DNA of 39,256 nt, from positions 1-39,256 of the forward strand of contig JBHACQ010000126.1 of assembly GCA_041854625.1 (NCBI GenBank). The letters are read 5' to 3'. The notes under the pieces were generated by a model. That model saw only the letters and a list, made by a program, of their open reading frames with translations. It was not told the origin of the DNA and made no database searches. Source of the DNA: Leptotrichia sp. GTDB lineage: Bacteria > Fusobacteriota > Fusobacteriia > Fusobacteriales > Leptotrichiaceae. The translations under genes were made by a program, and so were the position numbers. This document shows, piece by piece, positions 5,257-37,035 of the stretch; position 1 is the stretch's first letter, and each line of letters starts with the position of its first letter.

Positions 5257-6129
5257 ATGAGAAAAGCATTAATAATATTTTTAACAGCATCCATGTCAGT
5301 GTTTTCAATGACAAATAAGGAAATAATCGATCAGGGTATGTTAAAGCAGAAACAGGTATTTGAAAAATATTTTAATACATCTGAAGATAAAAAAAAGTCA
5401 AGGAAGGATGCGAACTTATTAAATAAGGTCTATCCTGAAATTATAGAATGGCTATATAGTAGAAATAAACAGACACATGAAGCTGAGCTTTCAAGGATGA
5501 ATAGAGAAAAAAGTGAAGGAAGGAAGGAATTTAAACCTCTTCTGGCAACGTATAATGAATATGTGAATGAAAATTCAGTTTTTTCAAAGATACTTCTGTC
5601 AAATTTCCTGCCTGTCAAGGAAGATATACAGTCGTATGTATATACTACAGCGTATATAACACTGGAGAATTTTTATTTGAATGTGAATACTGTAATTGAA
5701 GGGAAAAAAGATGAAAAGACCCTCAAGGAAAATGTGGATACAATAATTAACTATCTGTATCATTCTGGAGATTCAAGGACAAAGGAAGATTATTTAAATA
5801 TGACATCATCTGATTTAAGAAAAATAGTTTCAGAAGAATTTGTTAAACTGGACGGTATACTGGGAAAAAAAGGTCTGACAGGGAGTGAATCCTTCAAGAA
5901 ACAGGTTAACAGTGTGAGAAATACATTGAAAAAGGTAGAAAAACTATATAATAAATATGATACGAATTTTGACTTATACATAGACAGTCTGGATATGAAG
6001 AGTGAAAGTAAGGACAATCTTAAAAAGCTTGTGAAATTTGAAGAAATTTCTAATCTGAAATTTTTGATACAGAGTTTAGAAAATCCAGAAGAAAAAGATA
6101 AAAAAGGAGATGGAAATGGAGAAAAATAG
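5257..6129 (+). CDS. hypothetical secreted, probably helical protein
   Basis: Signal-peptide-like N-terminus MRKALIIFLTASMSVFS; SD GAAAGG; no recognised domain. Confidence 0.7.
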   Translation: MRKALIIFLTASMSVFSMTNKEIIDQGMLKQKQVFEKYFNTSEDKKKSRKDANLLNKVYPEIIEWLYSRNKQTHEAELSRMNREKSEGRKEFKPLLATYNEYVNENSVFSKILLSNFLPVKEDIQSYVYTTAYITLENFYLNVNTVIEGKKDEKTLKENVDTIINYLYHSGDSRTKEDYLNMTSSDLRKIVSEEFVKLDGILGKKGLTGSESFKKQVNSVRNTLKKVEKLYNKYDTNFDLYIDSLDMKSESKDNLKKLVKFEEISNLKFLIQSLENPEEKDKKGDGNGEK

Positions 6130-6847
6130 TAACTATAAAGCTTCGGATATGAAAATATACAATGAACTGGATGATTTTGCTGCCGAAGTTCTGAATGGAG
6201 AAGAACTAATAAAATATATGGGGGCAAGAAGGGAGTATTTTCTTTCACAGGAAGAGGCAGTTTCAAAATATTTTAGTTCAGGCGAAGTAAAGGAAAAGAT
6301 ATCTACATATGGAGATTTCTATTACCATTATCTAGCAGAATACAGTAGAGGATACATGTATAAGATTGGGAATACGGGATATACTGAAGGGTTTAGGGAA
6401 ATGCTTCAGAAATATGAACTGGATCCAGATATAATTGATGTTAACTGGGAAAATGTGAAGGAAAAAGAGGAAATTTATGAAACTGACCTCTCAGATATAC
6501 TTTTTGCTATGATAAGCTATGAAATAGGAAAACATGGTTTCGTAATATTTGGAATTAATATGGGATTCGAATCAACTATATATTTTATAGTTAATGAAAA
6601 AGCCTATAGTTCAAGAATAAAAAAGAATTATGATTTTATTACGCTTTTTGACCTGGAATTTCTGGAAAATGTATATAATGAGATATATGAAGTAACAGAA
6701 GACATCGGCGAAAAAAAGGTAAGGATAGGGGACTTCCTGGAAAAGAAGAATAATAAATATTATACGATGTTTAGAAACAGGGAGGCTAATACAGTAATAG
6801 AAAACCTGAACAGTGATAATGACGAAAAACTGAAACTTATACTGTAA
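6116..6847 (+). CDS. hypothetical acidic protein
   Basis: Long ORF overlapping the upstream stop; AAGGAG SD before ATG 6116; no confident family. Confidence 0.7.
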   Translation: MEKNSNYKASDMKIYNELDDFAAEVLNGEELIKYMGARREYFLSQEEAVSKYFSSGEVKEKISTYGDFYYHYLAEYSRGYMYKIGNTGYTEGFREMLQKYELDPDIIDVNWENVKEKEEIYETDLSDILFAMISYEIGKHGFVIFGINMGFESTIYFIVNEKAYSSRIKKNYDFITLFDLEFLENVYNEIYEVTEDIGEKKVRIGDFLEKKNNKYYTMFRNREANTVIENLNSDNDEKLKLIL

Positions 6848-7124: not shown

Positions 7125-7637
7125 ATGGAAAATATAGTATTAATTGGGATGCCTGCAAGCGGGAAAAGTACTGTTGGGAAACTTCTTTCTAAAAAGATAG
7201 GATATGAGTATTATGATGCAGACAGGTATCTTGAAAAAAATGAAAATGTCAGGATAAGTACCCTGTTTGCAGAAAAGGGAGAGGATTATTTCAGAAAGCT
7301 GGAAACAGAATATCTGAAAAAGCTTTCCCAGAAGAAGAAAATAATAATATCTACTGGAGGAGGAGCTGTAAAGAAGCAGGAAAATATGGAAATTTTAAAA
7401 AAGAATGGAATAATAGTCTTTTTAAGTAGAAGTATTGATAAAATAGCTAAGGAGAATCATGAGCATAGACCTCTTCTTCAGAATATAGACAATATACATA
7501 AACTGTATTCAGAAAGGATAGAACTATATAACAGGTATGCAGATATTATAATAGAAAATGAAGGAACTTTAGAGGAAACTGTGAATAAGACAGCAGAATC
7601 AGTGAAAAAATATATAATGAAAGGGAAGAGGTCATGA
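7125..7637 (+). CDS. aroK: shikimate kinase
   Basis: IGMPASGKSTVG P-loop, GEDYFRKLE, STGGG, RPLL. Confidence 0.95.
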   Translation: MENIVLIGMPASGKSTVGKLLSKKIGYEYYDADRYLEKNENVRISTLFAEKGEDYFRKLETEYLKKLSQKKKIIISTGGGAVKKQENMEILKKNGIIVFLSRSIDKIAKENHEHRPLLQNIDNIHKLYSERIELYNRYADIIIENEGTLEETVNKTAESVKKYIMKGKRS

Positions 7638-8068: not shown

Positions 8069-8098
8069 GATAATATAAATTAATTTGTGAGGGAATAT

Positions 8099-8533
8099 AT
8101 GGAATTTAAGGATAATGATAGTGTAGATGCATGTAGGATTGCCTTGAAAATGGCAATATCATCGAGAGAGGAGGAAAAGGAGCTCATAAAAAAATATAGG
8201 GGGGAAGGCATTAAGGTAGCAGCTGTGAATGTCGGCGGCTCAATGCCGGGATCAAGATTTAAATTTATAGAAAGTGCCTTAATTGCAGCAAAGAGAAATA
8301 ATCTTATTCGGGATGAACATGTACACGATGGAGCTGTAATCGGTGCAGTAAGAGAGGCAATGAGTCAGATTGAGACAAATATAAATGGACTTAGTGTAGG
8401 TGGAAAAATAGGGATAGCTAGAAATGGAGAACATTTAGGAGTTGCAATATTTTTAAGTGTGGGAATACTTCAGTTTAATGAGGTTATTACTTCTGTAGCT
8501 CATAGGTCTATAGCTGTCCTAGATGGTGAATAG
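8099..8533 (+). CDS. hutP: HutP-family RNA-binding/antiterminator-like protein
   Basis: RIALKMAISSREEE, IESALIAAKR, GAV.GA..EA, GGKIGIARNGEH; no hut genes nearby. Confidence 0.75.
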   Translation: MEFKDNDSVDACRIALKMAISSREEEKELIKKYRGEGIKVAAVNVGGSMPGSRFKFIESALIAAKRNNLIRDEHVHDGAVIGAVREAMSQIETNINGLSVGGKIGIARNGEHLGVAIFLSVGILQFNEVITSVAHRSIAVLDGE

Positions 8534-18272: not shown

Positions 18273-19253
18273 ATGATATATTTTATCGGAGGATTGAAAA
18301 ACAGGGAATTTAAATATTTTGATATAATAGGAAAAATAAGGGAGGAAAACAGGGGAATAAGTGAAAGTTTTTACGATGCGGATATTAAGGAAGAAGATAA
18401 GTTCCTTGAAAAAATAAGCTTTAATTCAATATTTTCATCTCAGGAAATGATAGTACTGAAAAGGGCTGAAAAATTGAAAGATCTGGAGAAGACTCTGGAA
18501 TATATCTCGAACCTGGATGTAGAAAATAAAGAAATTATAATTGATTATGAAAGGGAAGATGGTAAAATTCCGGTAAAATTAAATAAGCTGCTTGAACTAC
18601 TGAAAAAGGAAAAGAAAATGGAAGTATTCCTATTCCTGAAAGAAAGCAATGAAGAAATAAGGAAATATGTACAGAATGAACTGGGGGTATCATCTAGGGA
18701 CGCAGTACTGCTATTGGAAATGATAGGAGATAATCCTTTTAAAGTAAGAAATGAGATTGAAAAAATAAAAGTATACCTGAATGGAGATACTTTAAACATT
18801 GAGGAAATAAGGAATGTAATAACAGTCAATAAGGAATATAAGCTGTATGAGATGACTGAAAAAATATTTTCAGATAAATCTGAAGAGGTAATGGAATATC
18901 TTGAAAGGACAAAGGAATACATGGGAATTCTATATTCCTTATATGGAGAACTGGAAATAATGTATAAATTAAGTAATTTTAAGAAAATGGGAAAGGATTT
19001 CAGCAATAATTATAATGTATTTAAGAATCAGTTTGAGGAAGTGAAGGAAGCCTTCAGGACAAATAACAGGGTTCCGAATTCCTATTCTATATTTAAGAAA
19101 CTGGAGAGAGTAAGAAATTATTCCAATGAAAATCTAGGTAAGCTGGTATACAGATGCTGGGAAGCTGAAAAGGATATAAAGACAGGAAAGATTACAATGG
19201 AAGCTGGAATTGAAGTTCTGATGATGGAAATATCTTCTTATTACAGGAAATAG
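18273..19253 (+). CDS. holA: DNA polymerase III delta subunit
   Basis: MIYFIGG start, SIFS...IVLK, NEIEKI..Y, C-terminal EKDIKTG; 326 aa. Confidence 0.75.
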   Translation: MIYFIGGLKNREFKYFDIIGKIREENRGISESFYDADIKEEDKFLEKISFNSIFSSQEMIVLKRAEKLKDLEKTLEYISNLDVENKEIIIDYEREDGKIPVKLNKLLELLKKEKKMEVFLFLKESNEEIRKYVQNELGVSSRDAVLLLEMIGDNPFKVRNEIEKIKVYLNGDTLNIEEIRNVITVNKEYKLYEMTEKIFSDKSEEVMEYLERTKEYMGILYSLYGELEIMYKLSNFKKMGKDFSNNYNVFKNQFEEVKEAFRTNNRVPNSYSIFKKLERVRNYSNENLGKLVYRCWEAEKDIKTGKITMEAGIEVLMMEISSYYRK

Positions 19254-19328
19254 CGGGGATATTGACAGTCATATGATTTCTGTCTGGAATTGTTCAATAT
19301 ATTTTCATTTCTTTTGAACAGGAGGAGG

Positions 19329-21635
19329 ATGATTATAATTTCGAAAATTATAGAATTTAGAAATGTCAGCTTATTAAAGGAAGGCAGATTAATAATAGAT
19401 AATGTGTCGTTTTCCTTAAAAAGGAACGCCTATAATGTCATTATAGGGAGAAATGGTATAGGGAAATCTACTATATTAAAACTGATTACAGGATTAGAAA
19501 AACCTAATAGCGGAGAAATTTATACAGATAATGTAAGAATGAAATATGGTGAGGAAGAACTGTATAGAGCCAGAAAAAGAATCGGGACAGCCTTTCAGAA
19601 TACAGATGAAGAACTTATAGGGACAACTGTGCTGGATAATCTGATTTTTGTGATGGAAAATAATTGTATACCCAAGGAAGAAATGAGGGAATATATTGAA
19701 AAATACACACTTCTTTTTAATATGGGAGACATATTAAATAAAAGAAAATGTGAAATTACAGAAAGTGAAAAATGTAAAGTAGCATTGGCTACTTCAGTTG
19801 TATCAGGGGCGGATATTATTTTAATGGATGAAGTAAGCGTCAGAGCTGACAGTATAATGAAAAAAGAAATGGAAAGAATTATTGATATTCTACTGAAAGA
19901 AGGAAAGACTGTCATTTCAGTTACTCACGATACAGATGAAATAAGGAAGAGTGACTTTGTAGTATATTTGAAAGAAGGAGGGCTAATAAAGGAAGGGAAA
20001 CCGGAGGAAATATTTCCGGAATATTTAGAAGAAATGATGAATACAGAGTTTCCAGTGTATGAAAGTAAAAGGGAGCCTGTTAATCTGATACAGGAGGGAG
20101 ATAATTTAGAGGGAGTTACAAAAATAGTACTTTCAGAAGTAAACTTTACTTTAGGAAAAAATGGTGAAAAAATAATAGATAATCTTTCAGTAAGTATTCC
20201 AAAGGGGAAGATAACTTCTATTATAGGGAAATCAGGCAGTGGAAAGACTCTGCTTCTTGAACTTATGTCAGGGATATTGCTTCCATCAGAAGAATTTTCA
20301 GGTGAAATTTCCTGTGTTAAAGAAGACGGGGTTCTGCATATTAATAAAAATACTCCGGAAAGGGAAATAAAGGAAGCTTTCAAGAATTTTAATATTGTAT
20401 TCCAGCATCCGGAAGAACAGTTCTTTGAGACTACAGTAAGAAATGAAATTAAATATAATATCATAAAAAAATATAGTTTAAATGGAAAGGAAACTTTGGA
20501 AACGGATCTTAGAATAAAGGAAGCTGCACTAATATTTGGTTTTGACGAAGAATTTACGAATAAGTCCCCCTTCAAGCTGTCAGAAGGTGAGAAAAAGATG
20601 GTAAGCCTGGTTATGGCAGTATGCCTTAAACCGGAAGTGCTTTTATTGGATGAACCTTTTGCAGGATTAGATTATACTACGAAAAAGAAGATTGTTAAGC
20701 TGATTGAAGAACTGAAGAAGGAAGGGGTTACTGTAATATTAACGGAAAAGGATAAAGGCCCAGGATATCAGTGTTCAGATTATTTTATACAGCTTGAAGG
20801 AAAACATATTAAGAAAGAAGCAAAAGAATCACGTGATATGAAAAAATTAAATGTGGAGGAGAAATTTTCCAGACCTTCCTTTTTTCATAGGCTTGATCCC
20901 AGAAGTAAAATACTTTCAACATTAATAATTATAATATTACTGTTGATAACCCCCTTATTCTTGCGGAATTCATATTATAAGGGATATATATATATATCAA
21001 TATTTCTTCTAGGACATGTGACAATCTTCAGGCTGGATATGGTGAAAGCTATAAAAAGAATGAAGATATATCTGATTACTGCTGTAATATTGACCTTCTT
21101 TAACATATTGTTTATGAGAAGCGGTGTACTTCTAGCTGATTTTGGGTATATAAAAATTTATGATACTCCAATAATGTATTCGTTGAATATAATATATCAG
21201 ATATTTCTTATTATAGTTGTTACAGAAATTTTTACAGCAACTACAGAAGGAAACGAAATAATGAAGGGAATAAGTTACATAATGAGAAAAGGAAATAGGA
21301 ATAGCGAATCTGCCTTAATGTTTACAGTTGCTACAGGATTTATTCCTACAGTTTATGAGAAGGTAAGGCAAATAATAAAAGTACAGAAAAGCAGAGGGGC
21401 GGATTTTTCATTAAAGGGTATTAGAAGTATAGAGGAGCTTTTTCTTCTTATTATACCGTTATTTTATCTTACTGCACAGAAAATGAATAAAAATTCTGAA
21501 ATAATGTCCTCCAGAAATTTTGTTATAGGCAGGGAAAGGAGTGAATACAGGAAATTAAGGTTTAGTACAGCAGACTATATCTATATGGGGATAGTAGCAG
21601 TATTTTCAGTATCCTATATATATTTTATTTTATAA
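19329..21635 (+). CDS. fused ECF energizing module: EcfA-EcfA'-EcfT in one polypeptide
   Basis: Two NBDs (GRNGIGKS..IILMDE..VTHD; GKSGSGKT..VFQHPE..LSEGE..LLLDEPFAGLD) followed by a CbiQ/EcfT domain (HRLDPRSKI, QKSRG, MSSRNF); no internal stop; exact start uncertain. Confidence 0.85.
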   Translation: MIIISKIIEFRNVSLLKEGRLIIDNVSFSLKRNAYNVIIGRNGIGKSTILKLITGLEKPNSGEIYTDNVRMKYGEEELYRARKRIGTAFQNTDEELIGTTVLDNLIFVMENNCIPKEEMREYIEKYTLLFNMGDILNKRKCEITESEKCKVALATSVVSGADIILMDEVSVRADSIMKKEMERIIDILLKEGKTVISVTHDTDEIRKSDFVVYLKEGGLIKEGKPEEIFPEYLEEMMNTEFPVYESKREPVNLIQEGDNLEGVTKIVLSEVNFTLGKNGEKIIDNLSVSIPKGKITSIIGKSGSGKTLLLELMSGILLPSEEFSGEISCVKEDGVLHINKNTPEREIKEAFKNFNIVFQHPEEQFFETTVRNEIKYNIIKKYSLNGKETLETDLRIKEAALIFGFDEEFTNKSPFKLSEGEKKMVSLVMAVCLKPEVLLLDEPFAGLDYTTKKKIVKLIEELKKEGVTVILTEKDKGPGYQCSDYFIQLEGKHIKKEAKESRDMKKLNVEEKFSRPSFFHRLDPRSKILSTLIIIILLLITPLFLRNSYYKGYIYISIFLLGHVTIFRLDMVKAIKRMKIYLITAVILTFFNILFMRSGVLLADFGYIKIYDTPIMYSLNIIYQIFLIIVVTEIFTATTEGNEIMKGISYIMRKGNRNSESALMFTVATGFIPTVYEKVRQIIKVQKSRGADFSLKGIRSIEELFLLIIPLFYLTAQKMNKNSEIMSSRNFVIGRERSEYRKLRFSTADYIYMGIVAVFSVSYIYFIL

Positions 21636-21752
21636 GGATAATTTGCGGATTTTAAATTATAGAAAAGGTATTTTAAGTATTTATAATATTAAAAATTCTT
21701 TTATATTTTAAATATTAAGTAAGATTCTTGTGAAAAAAATTTTCATATGGTA

Positions 21753-21780
21753 TTGCATTATTAAAAAAATGTTGTAAACT
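21753..21780 (+). promoter_or_regulatory. candidate promoter of the rnf operon
   Basis: TTGCAT-16 bp-TAAACT in an AT-rich intergenic region. Confidence 0.45.
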
Positions 21781-21818
21781 AATATTATAGGAAACTATTT
21801 TTTAAGGAGAGAAGAAAT

Positions 21819-23123
21819 ATGAACTTAATAAGTGGAATAGGGAAAATTAAGCTAAAAGGCAGAAAAGAGCTGACAAAGTCAAAAGAAATAGTTAGCATAC
21901 CTGCACCTTCAGTTATTTACATTCCTTTAATTATAGGAGCTTCAACAGATTTTGAAGTTCATGTGAAAGAAGGGGATGAAATATTTAAAGGAACTAAATT
22001 AGCTACAAGGAAAGATTTGTATGTCCCGATTTACAGTCCTGTATCTGGAACTGTAAAAGGAATTGAGAAAAGAATGCATATGTCAGGTAAGGTACAGAAC
22101 CATCTGGTTATTGAAAATAATCATAAGGATGAAGAAATTGTGCCATTTTCTTATGAAAATCCAGATAATCTTTCTCCAGAGGAACTGGTGGCGGCAATAA
22201 AGGAAATAGGAATACTTGGTCTGGGAGGTTCAGGGTTTCCGACATATGTGAAATATGAGAATGCTAAAAACATTGATACTGTTCTTATAAATGCAGTAGA
22301 ATGTGAACCATATCTGACTTCGGATTACAAAATAATGGAAAAGCATTCTGAAGAGCTGGTAGACGGGACTAATTTTTTAATGAAGGCGGGAAAAGCGAAA
22401 AAGGGGATAATAGCTGTAAAAATAATCAATGACAAATTAATTGAAAAACTTAAGGAAAAAGCAGCAGGTTTTAAAGATATAGAGGTAGTTCCTGTGGCTG
22501 ATGCCTATCCGATGGGATGGGAAAGAGTTCTTATAAGAGAGCTTTTTAAAAAGGAATATGACAGGTTTCCTGGGGAAATAGGAATAGTTGTCAATAATGC
22601 TACAACAGCAATCTATCTTTCTGAAGCTTTAAGATATAGAAAACCTATAACACACAGAATAGTGACGATTTCAGGAGAAGCAGTAAAGAATCCTGAAAAT
22701 GTATATGTTCCTATCGGTACATCAGTAGATTATATTATAGAAAAAATCGGTGGCTATTTACCTAATGTGGAAGAAATAGTTGTTCTTGCAGGAGGGCCTA
22801 TGATGGGGAAATCAATAGCCAATGATACATTTGTAATAAATACCCACAGTAATTCTATAACAATCCTGCCTAAAGAAAATCTGGAAGAACTGCCATGTCT
22901 GAGATGCGGACTTTGTGTGGAGTACTGTCCGGCTAAAATACAGCCTGTCCAGATAATGAATGCAGAAAAACAGAAAAATCTGGAAGCTGTTACGGAAGCT
23001 TCAGCTGATAAATGTATAACATGTGGAATATGTTCATTTATATGTCCGTCAAAAATAGAAGTTACAGACTGGGTTGGAAAAGCCAAGACGAGAATAAATA
23101 ACGCACGAAAGGCAGGTAAGTAA
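21819..23123 (+). CDS. rnfC: Rnf electron transport complex subunit C
   Basis: GLGGSGFPT, INAVECEPYLTSD, YPMGWE, GGPMMG, two CxxCxxCxxxCP motifs. Confidence 0.95.
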   Translation: MNLISGIGKIKLKGRKELTKSKEIVSIPAPSVIYIPLIIGASTDFEVHVKEGDEIFKGTKLATRKDLYVPIYSPVSGTVKGIEKRMHMSGKVQNHLVIENNHKDEEIVPFSYENPDNLSPEELVAAIKEIGILGLGGSGFPTYVKYENAKNIDTVLINAVECEPYLTSDYKIMEKHSEELVDGTNFLMKAGKAKKGIIAVKIINDKLIEKLKEKAAGFKDIEVVPVADAYPMGWERVLIRELFKKEYDRFPGEIGIVVNNATTAIYLSEALRYRKPITHRIVTISGEAVKNPENVYVPIGTSVDYIIEKIGGYLPNVEEIVVLAGGPMMGKSIANDTFVINTHSNSITILPKENLEELPCLRCGLCVEYCPAKIQPVQIMNAEKQKNLEAVTEASADKCITCGICSFICPSKIEVTDWVGKAKTRINNARKAGK

Positions 23124-23124
23124 T

Positions 23125-24180
23125 ATGAAGATAATATTTAAGAGGACAACGCCTACTTATCGTAATCAGCTGTCTACCCAGAATGTAATGGTATACCTTA
23201 CAATAGCACTGTTAATTGTCAGCTTATGCTCAGTGGGATATTATTTTACTTTCGGGATGGACTATGGGATAAAGGCGATATTAATGATAGCAGTATCACT
23301 GGCAGCAGCATATCTGACAGAAGCTGGATATTTTTATCTTATGAAGGAAAAAGATATAAAGAAAGCTGTCAATAGATCATTCCCCTATGTTACTGCAATA
23401 CTTTTTGCACTAATACTTCCAATAGGAACACCATATTATGTAATAGCAGCAGGGAGCATTTTTTCAATATTTGTAGGAAAACTTATATTTGGTGGTTTCG
23501 GTCAGAATATTTTTAATCCTGCATTGATAGGAAGGGTTTTTGTCATGATGTCTTATGGAGACAAACTGACAGCAGTATTGCCAGGGAAATCAGTAGATGG
23601 AATAAGCAGTGCCACTCCTACAGCGGTCCTGGCAGGGGCAGGATGGATGGAAAAGCTTGACATGTCTTTTTCAGACCTGTTTCTAGGATTTTATAAAGGT
23701 TCAATAGGAGAAACATTTACTCTTCTAATACTTATACTGGGAGTATTTCTTGCATTAAAGAAGGTACTGGACTGGAGGCTACCCGTATTCTATATAGGTA
23801 CATGTTTTATTATAGCGTTTGCTGCAGGAATAGTCCGTGGGCTTCCGCCATTAAATTTTGCACTTATTCATATAGGAATTGGAGGTCTTGTATTTGGTGG
23901 AATATTTATGCTTACAGATCCTGTAACTTCTCCTGTAAGTCCTTTCGGAAAAATATTGTTTGCAGTAGGAGCAGCCTTCTTTACAATGCTTTTGAGATTT
24001 AAGTCAAACATGCCAGAAGGGGTTCTATATTCAATACTTATAATGAATATGCTGACACCGATGATTGATAAATATACTATAACACCTACAAATAAGGAAG
24101 AAATGAAGAAAATAGCTGTTATAGGTGTATCGGTAGTATTGAGTATCCTGATTATAATATCAGTATGGAAGGGGGCGTAG
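23125..24180 (+). CDS. rnfD: Rnf subunit D
   Basis: FGGFGQNIFNPAL.GR, flavinylation-type DGISSATP, GSIGE, FMLTDPVTSP. Confidence 0.95.
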   Translation: MKIIFKRTTPTYRNQLSTQNVMVYLTIALLIVSLCSVGYYFTFGMDYGIKAILMIAVSLAAAYLTEAGYFYLMKEKDIKKAVNRSFPYVTAILFALILPIGTPYYVIAAGSIFSIFVGKLIFGGFGQNIFNPALIGRVFVMMSYGDKLTAVLPGKSVDGISSATPTAVLAGAGWMEKLDMSFSDLFLGFYKGSIGETFTLLILILGVFLALKKVLDWRLPVFYIGTCFIIAFAAGIVRGLPPLNFALIHIGIGGLVFGGIFMLTDPVTSPVSPFGKILFAVGAAFFTMLLRFKSNMPEGVLYSILIMNMLTPMIDKYTITPTNKEEMKKIAVIGVSVVLSILIIISVWKGA

Positions 24181-24185
24181 AAGTT

Positions 24186-24704
24186 ATGAAGAAATCATTG
24201 TATCTAAGTATGTTTCTGGCAGTAGTGAGTATAATTTCAGCATTAATACTTTCCTTGACTAATTCTCTTACATCTGAAACAATAAAGAATGCCAATATAG
24301 CTAAACAGAACAGGAAACTTGAATCAATGTTTAACATTAATACTAAATTTACAGAAGAAAAGGTTCCTGAAGATTCAAAGGAAATAGAAAAAATATTTAA
24401 GGCAGAAGAAAACGGTAAAGTTACAGGATATATATATAGCTTGTCATCAAAGGGATACGGAGGAAAAATGAGATTTATGGTGGCAATAAGTAAAGATGGT
24501 AAATATATAGCTTTTGATTCCCTGGAACATAATGAGACGCCAGGATTTGGTACAAAAATGGATGAAGCCAGATATAAGAGTCAGTTTAAGGAAAAACCTA
24601 TAACTGAAGGAGTAGATGGCATAAGTGGTGCAACAGTAACATCAAAAGGTCTGAATAAGGGATTTGAAGCTGCTGTGAAGCATTTTGAAGGAAATTACAG
24701 ATAG
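24186..24704 (+). CDS. rnfG: Rnf subunit G (FMN-binding)
   Basis: N-terminal TM, KGYGG, ETPGFG, DGISGATVTS flavinylation motif. Confidence 0.93.
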   Translation: MKKSLYLSMFLAVVSIISALILSLTNSLTSETIKNANIAKQNRKLESMFNINTKFTEEKVPEDSKEIEKIFKAEENGKVTGYIYSLSSKGYGGKMRFMVAISKDGKYIAFDSLEHNETPGFGTKMDEARYKSQFKEKPITEGVDGISGATVTSKGLNKGFEAAVKHFEGNYR

Positions 24705-24717
24705 GAGGAGTATAAAA

Positions 24718-25404
24718 ATGAAAAAATGGGATATAGTAAAATCAGGAATAATAAAGGAAAATCCTGTCTTTGTAATGTTTCTAGGTACATGTCCTATACT
24801 GGCGACAACAAATTCCCTGACTAATGCAGTCGGGATGTCTGTTGCATTTGCTGTAGTATTAATGATTACAAATACAATAATTGCAGCAATGAGGAAAATA
24901 GTACCTGATCAGATAAGGATACCTGTATATATAGTAGTTATAGCAACAGCAGTAAAATTCTGTGAAATGCTTTTAAATGCATATGCGCTTCCTGTCTATG
25001 AGTCACTGGGAGTGTTTCTGGCACTTATAGTAGTAAACTGTATTGTCCTTGGAAGGGCAGAGTCTTTTGCAAGTAAGAATACTGTAATGGATTCTTTAAT
25101 GGATGCGATAGGAGTAAGTATAGGATTTGCAGTAAGTCTTATATTGATGTCTTCTTTCAGGGAAATATTGGGAACAGGAGGACTGAAGCTGAAAAGCCTT
25201 TTTGATAGTGAAAAAGTAGTTTTTGATATACCTCTGTTCAGAAGTTATGCAGCATCCTTCTTTACATCTGGGGCAGGAGCTTTCTTAAGCTTTGGAATAC
25301 TTACAGGATTATTTAATATATACAAGAGCAGACAGGAAGAAAAGCAGAAACAGGCTGAAAAAGAAGCTAAAAAGCCTGTAGCTAAGGAAGGGAAGGTGGC
25401 ATAA
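24718..25404 (+). CDS. rnfE: Rnf subunit E
   Basis: ENPVF..LGTCP.LA, RIP...VIA, LIVVNCIVLGRAE, REILGTG; AGGAGG SD. Confidence 0.95.
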   Translation: MKKWDIVKSGIIKENPVFVMFLGTCPILATTNSLTNAVGMSVAFAVVLMITNTIIAAMRKIVPDQIRIPVYIVVIATAVKFCEMLLNAYALPVYESLGVFLALIVVNCIVLGRAESFASKNTVMDSLMDAIGVSIGFAVSLILMSSFREILGTGGLKLKSLFDSEKVVFDIPLFRSYAASFFTSGAGAFLSFGILTGLFNIYKSRQEEKQKQAEKEAKKPVAKEGKVA

Positions 25405-25976
25405 TGGAACTGGTAACATTATTTATATCGGCAGTCTTGATAAATAATATAATTCTAACAAAATATCTGGGAGTATGTCCATTCCTGGGAGTATCTAAAA
25501 GTGTGAAATCTTCCTTTGGAATGGGACTTGCTGTAATATTTGTCATTTTTTCATCTTCAATTATAACATATGGGCTATATTACCAGGTTTTAGTTCCTTA
25601 TAAGATGGAATATCTGGATCTGATAACTTTCATACTGGTTATAGCTTCCCTTGTACAATTTGTAGAAATGGTAATAAAGAAATTTTCTCCAGCCCTTTAC
25701 AAAGCACTGGGAGTTTATCTTCCCCTAATAACTACAAACTGTGCTGTATTAGGAACAGCCCTTCTGAATATAAGGGAAGGATATAATTTTTCTCAGATGC
25801 TTGTAAACTCAATAGCAGTTCCAGTAGGATTTATGCTTATAATGCTTGTATTTGCTACAATAAGGGAAAGACTGGAACTTGCAGACACGCCTAAACATTT
25901 TAAAGGTAATGGTATTTCACTAATAACTGCCGCCCTCATGGCAATGGTAATGCTAGGATTTGCAGGGGTGGTATAA
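25404..25976 (+). CDS. rnfA: Rnf subunit A
   Basis: NN..L..YLGVCPFLGVSK, LGVYLPLITTNCAVLG, IRERL. Confidence 0.96.
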   Translation: MELVTLFISAVLINNIILTKYLGVCPFLGVSKSVKSSFGMGLAVIFVIFSSSIITYGLYYQVLVPYKMEYLDLITFILVIASLVQFVEMVIKKFSPALYKALGVYLPLITTNCAVLGTALLNIREGYNFSQMLVNSIAVPVGFMLIMLVFATIRERLELADTPKHFKGNGISLITAALMAMVMLGFAGVV

Positions 25977-25977
25977 A

Positions 25978-26160
25978 ATGAATATAAATATAGCTCCGGT
26001 TCTATGGGTTTTATTTCTAGTAGGAATATTCATATTAACTTATATTCTGAATAAGAAGACCCCAAAGCCGGAAGGTTGTGAAGATTTAATAAAAAATGCA
26101 GGTTGCAGAGGCTGCAGACAGATTTCGTGTGGCCATCATCCTGACAGAAGGGAGAAATAG
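25978..26160 (+). CDS. small membrane-anchored Cys-rich protein (60 aa) between rnfA and rnfB
   Basis: ATG 1 nt after the rnfA stop and stop 2 nt before rnfB; MNINIAPVLWVLFLVGIFILTYILNKKTPKPEGCEDLIKNAGCRGCRQISCGHHPDRREK. Confidence 0.8.
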   Translation: MNINIAPVLWVLFLVGIFILTYILNKKTPKPEGCEDLIKNAGCRGCRQISCGHHPDRREK

Positions 26161-26162
26161 GA

Positions 26163-26474
26163 ATGCAGATAGAAGCATTGATAGTACTAGGTATAATTGG
26201 AGCAGTTCTTGGACTGTTACTGGGAATAGCGGATAAATATTTACAGGTACAGGTGGATGAAAGATTGACTAAACTGGGTGAAATGCTTCCTAAATTTAAC
26301 TGTGGAGCATGTGGATATCCGGGATGCAGTGGTTTTGCAGAAGGAATTTTAAGTGGAGAAGTAAAATCTTTGAAGCAGTGTAAACCTATGAAACCTGTAT
26401 TAAGGATGGAAATCAAGGAATATCTGGAATCTACTCCAGGGCTTGATGGAGAAACTATAAAAGTAGAAGTCTAG
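26163..26474 (+). CDS. rnfB: short RnfB (TM + single N-terminal Fe-S domain only)
   Basis: TM helix, VDER....LP..NCGACGYPGC...A...C.P; no ferredoxin CxxCxxCxxxCP domains; 103 aa. Confidence 0.85.
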   Translation: MQIEALIVLGIIGAVLGLLLGIADKYLQVQVDERLTKLGEMLPKFNCGACGYPGCSGFAEGILSGEVKSLKQCKPMKPVLRMEIKEYLESTPGLDGETIKVEV

Positions 26475-26489
26475 AATCTGGAGAAAAGA

Positions 26490-27683
26490 ATGAAGAATTA
26501 CATAGCAGGAGAAACATTGACCTCAGAAAACAGGTCTTTACTGGAATATATGAAGACAATAATAAAAAGAATCAACGGGACAGGGCTTATGCTTTTGGCA
26601 TTAGCCTTGTCTTCTTCCTGTATGAAGAACAGTGAAAAAATGTACACTGAAACAATAGATGGATTATTTGATACAACACATGTCATATCAGGATATGATA
26701 TGGATGAGAAGAAATTCATGAAAAAAGTGGAATTTTATAAGAAGGAAATGGAAAGGCTCCATAACCTTTATACAATTCATGAAAATATAGAAGGAATAAA
26801 TAACATAAAGACAATAAATGATAATGCAGGAATCAAGCCTGTAAAAGTAGATGGAGATATAATAGTCCTTCTGAAGGATTCAATAAAATGGAACAGGGAA
26901 ATAAGCAGTAATGTAAATATTGCAGCAGGGAAAATAATAGATTTATGGGAAAAAGGAAGAAAAGAAAATAAACTTCCTGATACAGAGGATCTGGAAGAAG
27001 CAAAAAAATGCAGTAATATTGATGATATTATAATAAATGAGAAGGAATCTACTGTCTTCCTCAAAAGAAAATGTATGATGTTGAATGTAGGGGCAGTAGC
27101 AAAGGGGTATGCAGTAGAAATAGCATCTGACAAGATGAAAAAAGAAGGAATGGATTCCCTCATAATATCAGCTGGTGGAAATGTAAAGGTTATAGGGAAA
27201 AGGAAAGTTCCTAGAAAAGAAAACGGAAAATCGGATTTAAGAAACTGCAGGCATGAATTCTGTATAGGAATAGCGTCACCAATATATAATAATGAAGAGC
27301 TGGACAAGAATAATATATATAATAAAAAGGAGAATTCATATATTTCTAAAGTTGCAGTATCAGATATGTCTGTAGTGACTACTGGAAATTATCAGAGATA
27401 TTTTTATTTGAAAGGAAAAGTTTATGGTCACATTATTAACTTGGAGACACTGTATCCGTCAGATATGTTTGCTTCAATAACGATTCTAACTGAAAATTCA
27501 GGTTTTGCGGACTTCATGTCAACGGCATTGTTTATGATGTCTTATGAAGAGGGGAAGAAACTTATAGAAAAAATAGGAACAAAAGAAAAAATAGAGGTTA
27601 TATGGGCTATGAAAACAGGTGATATAGAATCATCAGATGGACTGGTTAACGGAGAAAATTATGTTGAATATGATTTTAAGTAG
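26490..27683 (+). CDS. apbE: FAD:protein FMN transferase (ApbE/FmnB), probable lipoprotein
   Basis: Lipobox-like LALSSSC, GAVAKGYAV, AGGNV, TTGNYQRY, HIIN..T.YP, ADFMSTALF; alternative start 26550. Confidence 0.92.
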   Translation: MKNYIAGETLTSENRSLLEYMKTIIKRINGTGLMLLALALSSSCMKNSEKMYTETIDGLFDTTHVISGYDMDEKKFMKKVEFYKKEMERLHNLYTIHENIEGINNIKTINDNAGIKPVKVDGDIIVLLKDSIKWNREISSNVNIAAGKIIDLWEKGRKENKLPDTEDLEEAKKCSNIDDIIINEKESTVFLKRKCMMLNVGAVAKGYAVEIASDKMKKEGMDSLIISAGGNVKVIGKRKVPRKENGKSDLRNCRHEFCIGIASPIYNNEELDKNNIYNKKENSYISKVAVSDMSVVTTGNYQRYFYLKGKVYGHIINLETLYPSDMFASITILTENSGFADFMSTALFMMSYEEGKKLIEKIGTKEKIEVIWAMKTGDIESSDGLVNGENYVEYDFK

Positions 27684-28095
27684 GACAGATAACAGGAGTG
27701 GAATAAATATTTATGATGCAGCCTATATTTTTATTATAATTATAGCTTCTGTATTTTTAATATATTCAGGAAGGGTCTTTGTAAGTGGAAAAGGTAGCAG
27801 AGCTATTGTAAAATATAATAACAGGGAAATAATAGCTCTTGATTTAAGCAGAAATCAGACAGTCATCCTTAAAAGACGGAATTATCCCCTGCTTCTTGAT
27901 GATATGATTATAGAAGTTAAAAATAGGAAGGTAGCTGTAATAAAGGAAAAATCTCCTTATAATTATTGTTCGTTAATGGGATTTACAGACAGTGTGACAA
28001 GACCGATAATATGTCAGCCTAATAAAGTTACGGTTATAATTGAAACCGATGATAAAAATTCAGAAAATACAGATGTCGATGCGGAGGTACGTTAA
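27637..28095 (+). CDS. NusG domain II-like membrane-anchored protein (EetA-like)
   Basis: N-terminal TM, then IEV....V.V....SP..YCS.MG......PIICQPNKV; real start may be 27664 or 27670. Confidence 0.78.
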   Translation: MDWLTEKIMLNMILSRTDNRSGINIYDAAYIFIIIIASVFLIYSGRVFVSGKGSRAIVKYNNREIIALDLSRNQTVILKRRNYPLLLDDMIIEVKNRKVAVIKEKSPYNYCSLMGFTDSVTRPIICQPNKVTVIIETDDKNSENTDVDAEVR

Positions 28096-28626
28096 TTGGA
28101 AAGGAAGGATTTCATAGATTCAGACAGCAGGCTGAAAAAGGCACTTCAGATGTCAATGCTTCTTAGTTTAAGTATAGTACTTCAGATAGCTGAGTCATTT
28201 ATAGTTATTCCCTTTTTTCTGCCTGGAATAAAGCTCGGACTGGCAAATATAGTTACTATTGTAATTCTTTATATATACGGAATAAGGGAAGCCTTTAAGG
28301 TAGGAGTAATGCGGGTAGTCATATCAGGAATACTGAGAAGCGGGTTAGGTATCAATTTCTTATTTTCTTTAAATGGAATGATGCTGTCTGTACTTGTTTC
28401 GGGTTTCTTAAAAAAAACGGGAAAGTTTTCAGTAATAGGAGTCAGCATTGCAGGGGCAAATTTCCATATAATAGCCCAGATAGTGACAGCTTCCTTTATT
28501 TATAGGACAAGACTGCTGTTTATAAGCTACCTTCCATATATGCTTTTAGTAACATTGATTACAGGTTCCATAACAGGATATCTGGCAGGGGAAGTTCTTA
28601 AAAGGACTGATTTTGAAAGTTTTTAA
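28096..28626 (+). CDS. Gx transporter family / ECF S-component-like membrane protein (EetB-like)
   Basis: ES.I..P...PGIKLGLANIV, FS.IGVSIAGA.FH..AQ, YLP; GGAGGT SD with TTG start. Confidence 0.85.
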   Translation: MERKDFIDSDSRLKKALQMSMLLSLSIVLQIAESFIVIPFFLPGIKLGLANIVTIVILYIYGIREAFKVGVMRVVISGILRSGLGINFLFSLNGMMLSVLVSGFLKKTGKFSVIGVSIAGANFHIIAQIVTASFIYRTRLLFISYLPYMLLVTLITGSITGYLAGEVLKRTDFESF

Positions 28627-29281: not shown

Positions 29282-31753
29282 ATGATAGTTACTGATTTTA
29301 TTAATTCTAATATTATTGAAGAAATGAAAAATGAAATAAGAAATTCTGGAGGAAATGAAATTTTTTTCAGAGGAATTCCTGACAGTAAAGGAATAGTGCA
29401 GGAAATTGAAGTAATAGCTAGAGGTAACGGATATTCTGTAGCAGCATTGCTGAATATGATGAAAAAAAATGAAGTAATAATTCATAACCATCCTTCGGGG
29501 GTTCTGGTTCCCTCCAATGCAGATGTAAGTATTTCCAGTGTTTATGGAAATAGCGGTGGAGCATCATATATAGTTAATAATAATGTTGATGATATCTATA
29601 TAATTGTTCCCCTGAAAAAATATTTGAGAATAGATATAGATGACTTTTTTGGAGAAAATGGGAAAATTCATCAGGAGATAGATAAATTTGAAATACGTAA
29701 AGAACAGTATAAAATGTCTAAGTATATTGAGAAGAGCATGAATGAGAATCATAAGCTCATAGTAGAAGCAGGAACTGGGACAGGAAAGACAATAGCCTAT
29801 CTTCTCCCAACCTTGCTTTATGTACTGGAAAATAATCTGAAGCTTATTATTTCCACAAATACGATAAATCTTCAGGAACAGCTTATAAATAAGGATATTC
29901 CTCTGATAAAAAGGATAATAGGTAAAGAATTTGATTATGAAATAGTAAAAGGCAGAGGAAATTACCTCTGTAAAAGAAAACTTTATAATATGAAGACTAT
30001 TATAACTGATAAGGATACTGAGGAAGAAAAGAATGAGAAGATAATATTTAAAAATCTGATGGAGTGGGATAAGAAAACAGAAACAGGAGATAAAAATGAA
30101 GTAGAATACGGGATTTCAAATAAAGTGTGGGAAGAAGTGAGCAGTGAAACAGATACATGTATGGGGGTAAAATGTCCATACTATTCAAACTGCTATTTTT
30201 TTAAGGCGAGGAAGAAAGTTTCTAATTCGGATATGCTCATTCTTAACCACCATATGTTTTTCGCAGATCTATCAATAAGAAACGAGATAGGTTTTAATAC
30301 AGAATATTCAATCCTTCCCAATTATGATGTGATAGTCTTTGATGAGGCACATAATATAGAAGACACTGCCAGAAACTATTTTACATATGAAATTTCAAGA
30401 TATTCCTTCGGAAGACTTATGGGAAATATATATAATAGAAGAGCTTTGACAAGTACAAATTCAGGCTTTTTCACAAAACTCCTGGTACATCTGAATGAAA
30501 ACCTTCCACAGGAAGAATACATAAAAATAGATGATATGAAAGATGGGATTATAGGCAGCCTAAATGAGTTCTATGATAAAGGAAATGAAATTTTTGATAG
30601 GATAATATATATTTTTTCACAGGAAATGTCATCATCAGAGATAAAAAAGAGGATAGATAAGGACGAAATAAGAAAAAACAGAGACTGGAAGGAAGTAGAA
30701 AGATTACATAGGGATTTTAAGCAGATATATGGGGAGCTTTTAAGAAAAATTGTAAAATTCATGAATACGGTAGATGATTTTAATATGGAAGATGAAACTG
30801 GAATAATATTTGACTTTTCAAAGTATTTTGAAAAGCTTAAGCAATATTTTTCAAATTTCGAATTTATTCTTCAGTCTGATGACGGAAATTATGTCTACTG
30901 GATTAATATTATACCGTCAAAGGCTAATATAAAGCTTTATGCTACTCCTTTCAGTATATCAGATGAGCTGGATAATAATCTTTTCAGTAAGATGGAAAGA
31001 ATAATATTTACGTCAGCAACTCTGACAGTAGAAGATAAGTTTGATTATTACAGGGAAAGTATTGGCTTGAGGGATAATAGGGAAAAAAGGGTTGAAGAAG
31101 TAATTATAAATTCCCCTTTTGATTATGAAAAGCAGATGAAAGTCTACATTCCAGAGGATTTACTTGATCCGGGGAATATGGAGTTTTTAGAAGATTCTGC
31201 TGAATTTATTGAAAAGATGATAAAAAAGACGGAAGGACACTGCTTTCTTCTGTTTACTTCATACAGCTCCTTGAATTTTGTGTATAATAAGATAAAAAAA
31301 TACTTTGATAGCAGGGAATATACCCTTATAAAACAGAATGAATATCCAAGACATGAAATGATAGAAATATTTAAGAATTCCAGAAATCCTGTCTTATTTG
31401 GAACTGACAGTTTCTGGGAGGGAGTAGATGTCCAAGGAGAGCAGTTACAGTCTGTAATTATAGTTAAATTGCCCTTTAAAGTTCCGAATGATCCTGTTAC
31501 AGAAGCTATTATTGAAAATATAAGGATAAAAGGCGGAAATCCCTTTAACAGCTATCAGGTTCCACAGGCAGTAATCAAGTTTAAGCAGGGAGTAGGGAGG
31601 CTTATTAGAAGTAAGGAAGATAAGGGGATTATAACAGTTTTAGATAGCAGGATAATAAAAAAAAGTTATGGAAAGAAGTTTTTAAAGACCTTACCTAAAA
31701 ATATAATTATAAAAAACAGAAGTGAAATCTTGGGAATAATGGATACAAAGTAG
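29282..31753 (+). CDS. dinG: DinG/YoaA-family Fe-S helicase with N-terminal JAB/MPN (RadC-like) domain
   Basis: HNHPSG...PS..D; EAGTGTGKT, KGRGNYLC, C....CPY..C, DEAH, TSATL, LFTSY, FWEGVD, QGVGRLIR. Confidence 0.88.
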   Translation: MIVTDFINSNIIEEMKNEIRNSGGNEIFFRGIPDSKGIVQEIEVIARGNGYSVAALLNMMKKNEVIIHNHPSGVLVPSNADVSISSVYGNSGGASYIVNNNVDDIYIIVPLKKYLRIDIDDFFGENGKIHQEIDKFEIRKEQYKMSKYIEKSMNENHKLIVEAGTGTGKTIAYLLPTLLYVLENNLKLIISTNTINLQEQLINKDIPLIKRIIGKEFDYEIVKGRGNYLCKRKLYNMKTIITDKDTEEEKNEKIIFKNLMEWDKKTETGDKNEVEYGISNKVWEEVSSETDTCMGVKCPYYSNCYFFKARKKVSNSDMLILNHHMFFADLSIRNEIGFNTEYSILPNYDVIVFDEAHNIEDTARNYFTYEISRYSFGRLMGNIYNRRALTSTNSGFFTKLLVHLNENLPQEEYIKIDDMKDGIIGSLNEFYDKGNEIFDRIIYIFSQEMSSSEIKKRIDKDEIRKNRDWKEVERLHRDFKQIYGELLRKIVKFMNTVDDFNMEDETGIIFDFSKYFEKLKQYFSNFEFILQSDDGNYVYWINIIPSKANIKLYATPFSISDELDNNLFSKMERIIFTSATLTVEDKFDYYRESIGLRDNREKRVEEVIINSPFDYEKQMKVYIPEDLLDPGNMEFLEDSAEFIEKMIKKTEGHCFLLFTSYSSLNFVYNKIKKYFDSREYTLIKQNEYPRHEMIEIFKNSRNPVLFGTDSFWEGVDVQGEQLQSVIIVKLPFKVPNDPVTEAIIENIRIKGGNPFNSYQVPQAVIKFKQGVGRLIRSKEDKGIITVLDSRIIKKSYGKKFLKTLPKNIIIKNRSEILGIMDTK

Positions 31754-36687: not shown

Positions 36688-37035
36688 ATGGCAATAATAG
36701 AATTTAAACGCAGAGATGAACTAAAAATCTTATTTGGTATAAAATTACCTTCAATAGTAGCATCTTTTTATAAGGAAATTATAAATAGGAAACGTTCTTA
36801 TGAAATAATAAGGGATACATTCAATATAGAAGAAGGAAGGCTTATTAATATTGTAGATGTTGTAGATGGATTGGGAAATCCTGCTTCTGTTCTGGTAGTA
36901 TATGATAATTTTATTTCTGAGAGGGAGAGATTGAAAGCTGATCTTGAAATAGAAGTTTTTGATTTTAATATTTATGAATTGAATTATAATAGTGATATTG
37001 ATATTGAAGACATAATAAAAAGAATAAAAAATTAA
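36688..37035 (+). CDS. hypothetical protein (115 aa)
   Basis: Own promoter and GAGG SD; no recognised motif. Confidence 0.75.
   Translation: MAIIEFKRRDELKILFGIKLPSIVASFYKEIINRKRSYEIIRDTFNIEEGRLINIVDVVDGLGNPASVLVVYDNFISERERLKADLEIEVFDFNIYELNYNSDIDIEDIIKRIKN

What the first reader, a model, noticed from the sequence alone, without database searches (positions are those of the whole stretch)
19329..28626. Candidate self-contained Rnf + flavin-delivery system: fused ECF module, rnfCDGEA-X-B, apbE, EetA-like and EetB-like genes
Seen: an ECF energizing module lies directly upstream of the rnf operon, and ApbE, NusG-II and Gx/S-component-like genes are tightly packed after rnfB. RnfG (DGISGAT) and RnfD (DGISSAT) both carry flavinylation motifs. 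Established: ApbE/FmnB uses extracytoplasmic FAD to FMNylate these Thr residues. In the Listeria EET locus, FmnA (EcfT-like) and EetB (S-component-like) are implicated in exporting FAD to FmnB. Inference: the A-A'-T fusion and the Gx protein form a dedicated flavin exporter that matures an ion-pumping Rnf complex in a probably diderm organism, rather than a vitamin importer. No other S-component is visible in the window.
Basis: partly seen in the sequence, partly recalled or inferred. Interest (0 to 1): 0.85.

Follow-up and report, generated by a model that had tools for sequence, protein, structure and literature searches.

The report
Borrowed Rnf pump with flavin exporter
This gene cluster in a Leptotrichia-family bacterium encodes a compact Rnf ion-pump complex, likely acquired from gut Erysipelotrichales, together with the enzyme and transporter predicted to export FAD and attach flavin to it; the arrangement is already catalogued in print, and what is new here is a three-part transporter fusion missing motifs of one ATP site and a tiny conserved cysteine-rich gene inside the Rnf operon.

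Summary
Observation confirmed. The genes are ecfA-ecfA'-ecfT (one 768-aa ORF), rnfCDGEA, X, a short rnfB (103 aa), lipoprotein apbE, eetA and eetB. The FAD-export reading is probably right but is not new. Rivera-Lugo 2023 (PMC9973259) showed EetB/FmnA/EcfAA' export FAD, reported eetB beside Rnf, ApbE and ECF genes, and its Data Set S1 lists this same gene order for two Leptotrichiaceae. Here eetB and FMN-binding clients occur in the same 24 of 41 Fusobacteriales genomes, and within the family the ECF module occurs only beside eetB. Additions: (1) RnfC nests inside Erysipelotrichales (AU p 2.6e-64 against a Fusobacteriales clade), so the Rnf block was likely transferred. (2) The triple fusion is recent: all 4 fused clusters lost the NBD1 signature and NBD2 His of one composite ATP site, and 116 of 116 unfused ones keep both. 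(3) Gene X (60 aa, one helix, four Cys) lies between rnfA and rnfB in 39 of 39 short-RnfB loci and 0 of 12 long-RnfB loci. Against: the T domain is not shown to be FmnA, and 8 of 16 other Fusobacteriales have EetB without a clear EcfT. Verdict: new variant of a known kind, interest 0.33.

The parts
19329..21635 (+). EcfA-EcfA'-EcfT triple fusion (768 aa). NBD1 about residues 6-232, NBD2 about 268-490, EcfT about 517-765. NBD1 signature and NBD2 H-loop His are degenerate; both EcfT arginine motifs are kept.
21819..23123 (+). rnfC (434 aa), Erysipelotrichales-type
23125..24180 (+). rnfD (351 aa), flavinylation motif at residue 158
24186..24704 (+). rnfG, FMN_bind domain with flavinylation motif; the only PF04205 protein found in the assembly (longest ORF starts at 24165; start inferred from orthologs)
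24718..25404 (+). rnfE (longest ORF starts at 24685)
25404..25976 (+). rnfA
25978..26160 (+). gene X: 60 aa, one N-terminal helix, four conserved Cys; candidate extra Rnf subunit
26163..26474 (+). short rnfB (103 aa): helix plus one PF04060 4Fe-4S domain, no polyferredoxin domain
26490..27683 (+). apbE flavin transferase with a lipobox-like Cys (residue 44 of the longest ORF; true start probably Met21)
   Evidence: orthologs called LIPO in PMC9973259 Data Set S1
27637..28095 (+). eetA-like (PF07009 NusG domain II, one helix); true start probably a little downstream
28096..28626 (+). eetB / Gx family S-component (PF07456)

Best explanation
The cluster encodes a compact Rnf ferredoxin:NAD+ ion-pump complex, likely imported from an Erysipelotrichales-like donor, with its own predicted maturation kit: EetB likely binds cytoplasmic FAD and, with the neighbouring EcfA-A'-T module, would move it to the periplasmic face, where lipoprotein ApbE would attach FMN to RnfG and RnfD. 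Shown: gene identities, motifs, linkage, co-occurrence, RnfC ancestry, and loss of the two motifs of one composite ATP site in the fused forms. Inferred: substrate and direction (by homology to Listeria EetB), the T-EetB partnership, one working ATP site in the fusion, and electron entry from a soluble ferredoxin or flavodoxin into the single RnfB cluster, possibly aided by X.
For: EetB/FmnA/EcfAA' are genetically required for FAD export in Listeria and EetB pulls down FAD (PMC9973259, abstract through discussion read). PF07456 and PF04205 occur in the identical 24 of 41 Fusobacteriales genomes. Among 24 family relatives eetB is in 7; the ECF module ortholog is in 6 of these, each time between holA and rnfC (the seventh contig ends inside rnfC), and in none of the other 17. 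BioY is in 15 of 24, 8 of which lack the module, so it does not track it. The genome's other two EcfT genes sit with their own S genes. The 4 family genomes with ApbE but no eetB carry only a signal-less ApbE, so they need no export. The EetB model (pLDDT 89.2) has only ECF S-components among the listed Foldseek rows up to rank 21, best TmRibU TM 0.69, E 4.1e-3. The complex prediction T+EetB gave weak support: 0.48, best control 0.00, runs agree in at least 89% of contacts, partner pLDDT at least 72. That mark was reached by 116 of 157 solved and 2 of 215 mismatched pairs, but at 0.60 or under by only 18 solved and both mismatches, and like complexes are solved, so it may be likeness only. ribD and ribH are present, so flavin import is less needed. 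A one-cluster RnfB works in Thermotoga maritima (PMC7414866 passages), and a PFOR gene is present.
Against: Nothing was assayed. All family co-occurrence may be one acquisition, so it is not independent. 5 of 16 other Fusobacteriales have eetB, ApbE and FMN-binding clients with no PF02361 match, and 3 more have only sub-cutoff matches, so EetB may work without an ECF module. The module diverges fast (40-55% identity against 71-92% for RnfC/D and 60-70% for HolA), and the fused forms have decayed motifs; one relative also has a degenerate NBD2 Walker A. The T domain is not resolved as FmnA (AU p 0.34), Fusobacterium bioY-linked (0.46) or Erysipelotrichales housekeeping (0.22). No Foldseek match reached E 0.001. 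The genome is 83% complete, so more S-components may be missing; FAD synthetase and LpxC were not found either.
Confidence: 0.65

Rival explanations
1. EetB exports FAD on its own as a solitary S-component. The ECF module is dispensable and decaying, and the triple fusion is a neutral read-through kept by its place behind holA.
For: 8 of 16 other Fusobacteriales have eetB and clients but no over-cutoff EcfT, including a single-contig 99% complete genome (G029). The module diverges fast, and ATPase motifs are lost in 4 of 4 fused clusters.
Against: 116 of 116 unfused AA' proteins keep both signatures and both His loops. The module is found only with eetB in the family. Fused ORFs are intact across studies and keep site 1 and both EcfT arginines. 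Listeria needs FmnA and EcfAA' for export. The Fusobacteriaceae EetB is a distant type (24-30% identity, purB-glmM context).
Confidence: 0.2
2. The module is a general (group II) energizing module serving BioY or other vitamin importers, with EetB one client or none; its position before rnfC is incidental.
For: An orphan bioY exists in the genome and in all module-bearing relatives. The best non-family matches of the T domain are housekeeping EcfT and Fusobacterium bioY-linked EcfT. The assembly is incomplete.
Against: BioY is also present in 8 family genomes without the module. No PF07155, PF09515 or PF06177 S-component was found, and none turned up among 27 hydrophobic candidates, of which 7 unclear ones were scanned.
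Confidence: 0.12
3. EetB and the module import flavin, or EetB is a heptaprenyl diphosphate synthase subunit as its Pfam name says.
For: Pfam and JGI names. The closest solved fold is the riboflavin importer RibU.
Against: Six-helix membrane S-component model. Listeria EetB did not substitute for RibU in uptake. rib genes are present.
Confidence: 0.03

Closest known systems
Listeria monocytogenes EetB-FmnA-EcfA-EcfA' FAD exporter with FmnB (ApbE); Rivera-Lugo et al. 2023, PMC9973259
   Same: PF07456 S-component, eetA neighbour, ECF T and two ATPases, lipoprotein ApbE, flavinylated client. The paper counts eetB with apbE in 2,169 genomes, with Rnf in 572 Clostridia, with ECF-T in 291 and ECF-A in 796. 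Its Data Set S1 lists ecfAA'-ecfT-rnfCDGEA-small gene-short rnfB-apbE-eetA-eetB for Leptotrichia_A and Pseudoleptotrichia.
   Different: Own ATPases instead of shared ones; A, A' and T on one chain; one composite ATP site degenerate; diderm host; the client is Rnf rather than PplA; T not shown to be of the FmnA clade.
Rnf of Thermotoga maritima with a 10.56-kDa one-cluster RnfB (Kuhns et al. 2020, PMC7414866)
   Same: Order rnfCDGEAB, RnfB reduced to a helix and one predicted 4Fe-4S domain, flavinylated RnfD and RnfG.
   Different: An extra four-Cys gene X between rnfA and rnfB (the passages read mention none in Thermotoga; not tested there). The coupling ion is untested here.
Erysipelotrichales / Bacilli Rnf operon rnfCDGEA-X-shortB (loci L047-L073, L116-L144)
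   Same: Same order, same X, same short RnfB; RnfC 54-59% identical in the nearest group; L051 and L060 also carry apbE-eetA-eetB directly behind.
   Different: No ECF genes upstream of rnfC in 26 Erysipelotrichales loci (18 with 2.5 kb or more of upstream sequence); their ecfAA'T sits elsewhere, before a truA-like gene (neighbour name recalled); their RnfD is C-terminally longer.

Membership tests
EetB-type ECF FAD exporter | S-component of PF07456 (the paper's definition of an eetB homolog) | tested here: met
   E 8.4e-34, 117 bits over cut-off 30
EetB-type ECF FAD exporter | ECF S-component fold | tested here: met
   six-helix model, pLDDT 89.2; listed Foldseek rows up to rank 21 all S-components, TM up to 0.69, though none at E 0.001 or better
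EetB-type ECF FAD exporter | Linked to eetA, extracytosolic apbE and a flavinylated client | tested here: met
EetB-type ECF FAD exporter | T subunit of the FmnA clade | tested here: inconclusive
   long-branch clade of its own; AU does not reject FmnA, Fusobacterium or housekeeping sisterhood. The FmnA stand-ins were 4 eetB-adjacent EcfT genes from unnamed Bacilli, not the Listeria protein.
EetB-type ECF FAD exporter | T-EetB binding | tested here: inconclusive
   weak support 0.48 against best control 0.00; may reflect solved like complexes
EetB-type ECF FAD exporter | FAD binding and outward transport | not testable with these tools
   needs assay
Canonical ECF module | Two intact composite ATP sites | tested here: not met
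   NBD1 signature reads ITESE and NBD2 His loop reads TEK; Walker A/B of both domains and the NBD1 His are kept
Canonical ECF module | EcfT with two arginine coupling motifs | tested here: met
   QKSRG and SRN motifs
Rnf complex | Six subunits RnfCDGEAB | tested here: met
   RnfC and RnfA over the TIGR cut-off, RnfD/G/E just under, RnfB short
Rnf complex | Flavinylation motifs in RnfD and RnfG | tested here: met
Rnf complex | Polyferredoxin C-terminal domain of RnfB | tested here: not met
   103 aa, PF04060 only; precedent in T. maritima
Rnf complex | Ferredoxin:NAD+ activity coupled to Na+ or H+ | not testable with these tools
   needs assay

The most novel reading that the evidence does not exclude
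Bacilli-type minimal Rnf complexes have an unrecognised seventh subunit, the four-Cys membrane mini-protein X, that holds a metal centre and stands in for the polyferredoxin domain missing from RnfB. This Leptotrichiaceae lineage imported that complex and matures it with a single-chain ECF exporter running on one ATP site, which would be a two-gene model for studying ECF export.
Probability: 0.3. Interest if true: 0.6.

Novelty: new variant of a known kind. Interest (0 to 1): 0.33.

Why it matters
ECF export has been shown genetically in one organism, and its mechanism is open. A naturally fused A-A'-T plus EetB is a two-gene system for reconstitution, and its one degenerate site tests whether export needs two ATPs. 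X offers a concrete test of how Rnf complexes with a one-cluster RnfB accept electrons. The cluster also shows an oral fermenter apparently replacing a reduced native Rnf with a transferred one.

Tried and rejected
Rfam scan of the window: 0 matches, so no FMN riboswitch. Promoter/terminator scan: promoter-like sites near chance and no terminator-like site in the gaps of the cluster. EcfT and ATPase trees did not resolve the module's origin (ATPase tree: outside the sampled Bacilli housekeeping clade, AU p 0.14 for a Fusobacterium sister). My first idea, that the module came with the Rnf from Erysipelotrichales, rests only on best-hit scores and is not shown. Rows left out of the first EcfT tree: 11 of 68 (10 distant T types and one mis-started ORF), plus duplicates and one truncated gene. 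The apparent split of AA' in G017 is an N gap in the assembly. 'ApbE without EetB' as counter-evidence was rejected because those ApbEs lack a signal peptide. The PF09605 search rang in no control and is uninformative. A sequence search of the PDB with the EetB alignment gave 0 hits. The X model was confident only for its helix (pLDDT 73.8, pTM 0.43), so I ran no fold search; X has no Pfam hit at E 0.01. No RNA holder was listed. Paper searches (listings only) showed nothing on X, on the transfer or on such a triple fusion; one search returned unrelated eukaryotic papers, and the library lacks most subscription papers. The Data Set S1 text was cut at 4 million characters, and my search of it for fusions and for X was not run.
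Full report
Observation. The window holds, on the + strand, holA, a 768-aa ORF at 19329-21635 with two ABC ATPase domains and an EcfT domain, then rnfC, D, G, E, A, a 60-aa ORF X, a 103-aa rnfB, apbE, a PF07009 gene and a PF07456 gene, then rpsT. Contigs of two runs from different studies span the fusion in one piece and a third spans the A'-T junction, with no indels (one run may be the source). The nearest named records are Leptotrichia/Leptotrichiaceae (RnfC 75-92%). An Omp85 gene supports a diderm envelope; LpxC was not found in this 83% complete assembly.

What is already in print. Rivera-Lugo et al. 2023 (PMC9973259; I read parts 1-3 of 6, abstract through discussion) showed that EetB, FmnA and EcfA/A' are needed for FAD export to FmnB in Listeria. 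They defined eetB homologs as PF07456 and counted them beside apbE (2,169 genomes), eetA (3,328), ECF-T (291), ECF-A (796) and Rnf (572 Clostridia). All 36 Leptotrichiaceae rows of its Data Set S1 that the tool holds (file cut when stored) show the same gene order as this window, with AA' and T separate, labelled Rnf, EetA and EetB. An earlier scan note on another genome (e1-2372150) reached the same verdict for an EetB-EetA fusion; it is not independent support.

Does the module belong to EetB? In 41 Fusobacteriales genomes, PF07456 and the FMN-binding domain PF04205 mark the identical 24. Among the 24 family relatives, 7 have eetB. The ECF module ortholog is in 6 of these, always between holA and rnfC, and the seventh contig ends inside rnfC; none of the other 17 has it. 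One more named Leptotrichiaceae locus has the same layout. BioY is in 15 of 24, 8 of them without the module. The genome's other two EcfT genes lie with their own S genes. Searches for PF07155, PF09515 and PF06177 were blank, as were 7 unclear candidates out of 27 hydrophobic ORFs. Four family genomes have ApbE without eetB, but theirs is a signal-less ApbE of a reduced rnfCD cluster or next to its small partner gene. These counts are among kin and may reflect one event. The EetB model is a six-helix S-component. The T+EetB prediction gave weak support only: 0.48 against a best control of 0.00, in a band reached by 18 of 157 solved pairs and both passing mismatches, and possibly from likeness to solved ECF complexes.

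Against the reading. Outside the family, 5 of 16 genomes have eetB, ApbE and FMN-binding proteins but no EcfT match, and 3 more have only sub-cutoff ones. In the 8 examined, eetB lies away from rnf between genes I read as purB and glmM (names recalled from their N-termini) and is 24-30% identical to the window's. EetB may therefore work without a module. The T domain forms its own long branch; sisterhood with FmnA-like genes, with the Fusobacterium bioY module or with Erysipelotrichales housekeeping EcfT is not rejected (p 0.34, 0.46, 0.22). The ATPases fall outside the sampled Bacilli housekeeping clade.

The fusion. Only G000 and G003 among the genomes, and 4 of the 120 listed protein clusters (190 hits), are triple fusions; the rest are AA' plus T. 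All 4 fused clusters have lost the NBD1 signature (ITESE, ISEEE, LTAEE) and the NBD2 His loop, while 116 of 116 unfused keep LSGGE and the His (the 116 are close kin, but the more distant unfused relatives agree). By established ABC architecture these two elements serve the same composite site, so the fusion likely has one working ATP site. The module diverges faster than its neighbours (40-55% identity against 71-92% for RnfC/D). This fits either a streamlined asymmetric exporter or early decay.

Origin of the Rnf. RnfC is 46-59% identical to Erysipelotrichales RnfC and 31-36% to other Fusobacteriales. In a 36-row tree it nests inside Erysipelotrichales (99/98 and 100/99), and a clade of all Fusobacteriales RnfC is rejected (p-AU 2.6e-64). 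Two Erysipelotrichales loci have the whole rnfC-to-eetB order. The scan's patterns came from my own alignment, so the sampling leans to close relatives. The family's second, reduced rnfCD cluster groups weakly (81/78) with native Fusobacteriales RnfC, which suggests loss of the native complex and replacement by transfer (inference).

Short RnfB and X. RnfB keeps only the helix and the flexible one-cluster domain (domain layout from PMC12174285 passages). T. maritima has a 10.56-kDa RnfB and pumps Na+ (PMC7414866 passages), so this is no sign of breakage. A small ORF with three or more Cys lies between rnfA and rnfB in 39 of 39 distinct short-RnfB loci (42 before removing three duplicates) and 0 of 12 long-RnfB loci; 38 of 39 keep all four Cys. 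All short-RnfB loci belong to one Bacilli-derived lineage, so this is conservation rather than independent correlation. The ESM Atlas puts X near unnamed and FeoB-associated Cys-rich clusters of Bacillota (0.92-0.93), and the paper's supplement labels one ortholog FeoB_associated without comment. Searches showed no description of X as an Rnf subunit. [quoted passage not shown]

Verdict. A real, conserved cluster whose main function was already proposed and catalogued. The new elements are the likely cross-phylum transfer, the one-site triple fusion and the candidate subunit X. New variant of a known kind; interest 0.33.

Noticed in passing
G000:C15 (L024:3180-9069) and a second copy on G000:C29; also L040-L043: A reduced 'half-Rnf' cluster: ABC exporter gene, a 166-aa low-complexity protein with an N-terminal hydrophobic stretch, signal-less apbE, rnfC, and an rnfD lacking the flavinylation motif; no rnfG/E/A/B. 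In G000, G004 and G023 it lies beside genes that look like envelope glycosylation genes. G006, G018 and G019 keep rnfD and the small gene without apbE at that place. It differs from the NQR/RNF-like system defined in PMC8238504. The C29 copy may be contamination.
   Followed up: partly
L027-L034 (8 Fusobacteriales genomes outside the family): PF07456 gene in a purB/glmM-like context, far from rnf; several of these genomes have no detectable EcfT, so they are candidates for a solitary flavin exporter.
   Followed up: partly
window 19320-19340; L008 about 7150-7180: The ribosome-binding site abuts the annotated ATG, and one relative has no in-frame ATG/GTG/TTG there; a conserved Ile codon a few bases on may be a non-standard start for the ECF ATPase gene.
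   Followed up: no
L047-L073: Erysipelotrichales RnfD is C-terminally extended (450-640 aa against 351 here), and one RnfG is 513 aa; several Bacilli loci have extra 300-340-aa genes between rnfG and rnfE.
   Followed up: no
L118, L120, L122: Bacilli clusters with rnfC, rnfD, divergent rnfE/rnfA, apbE and eetB but no rnfB match.
   Followed up: no
window 29282-31753: DinG-like helicase with an N-terminal RadC-like JAB domain, conserved in relatives.
   Followed up: no
window 361-2043, 5257-6129, 6110-6847, 8087-8533, 36688-37035: ORFs with no NCBIfam match.
   Followed up: no
window 19200-22200: Near-identical DNA occurs in runs recorded as pig and oral metagenomes.
   Followed up: partly
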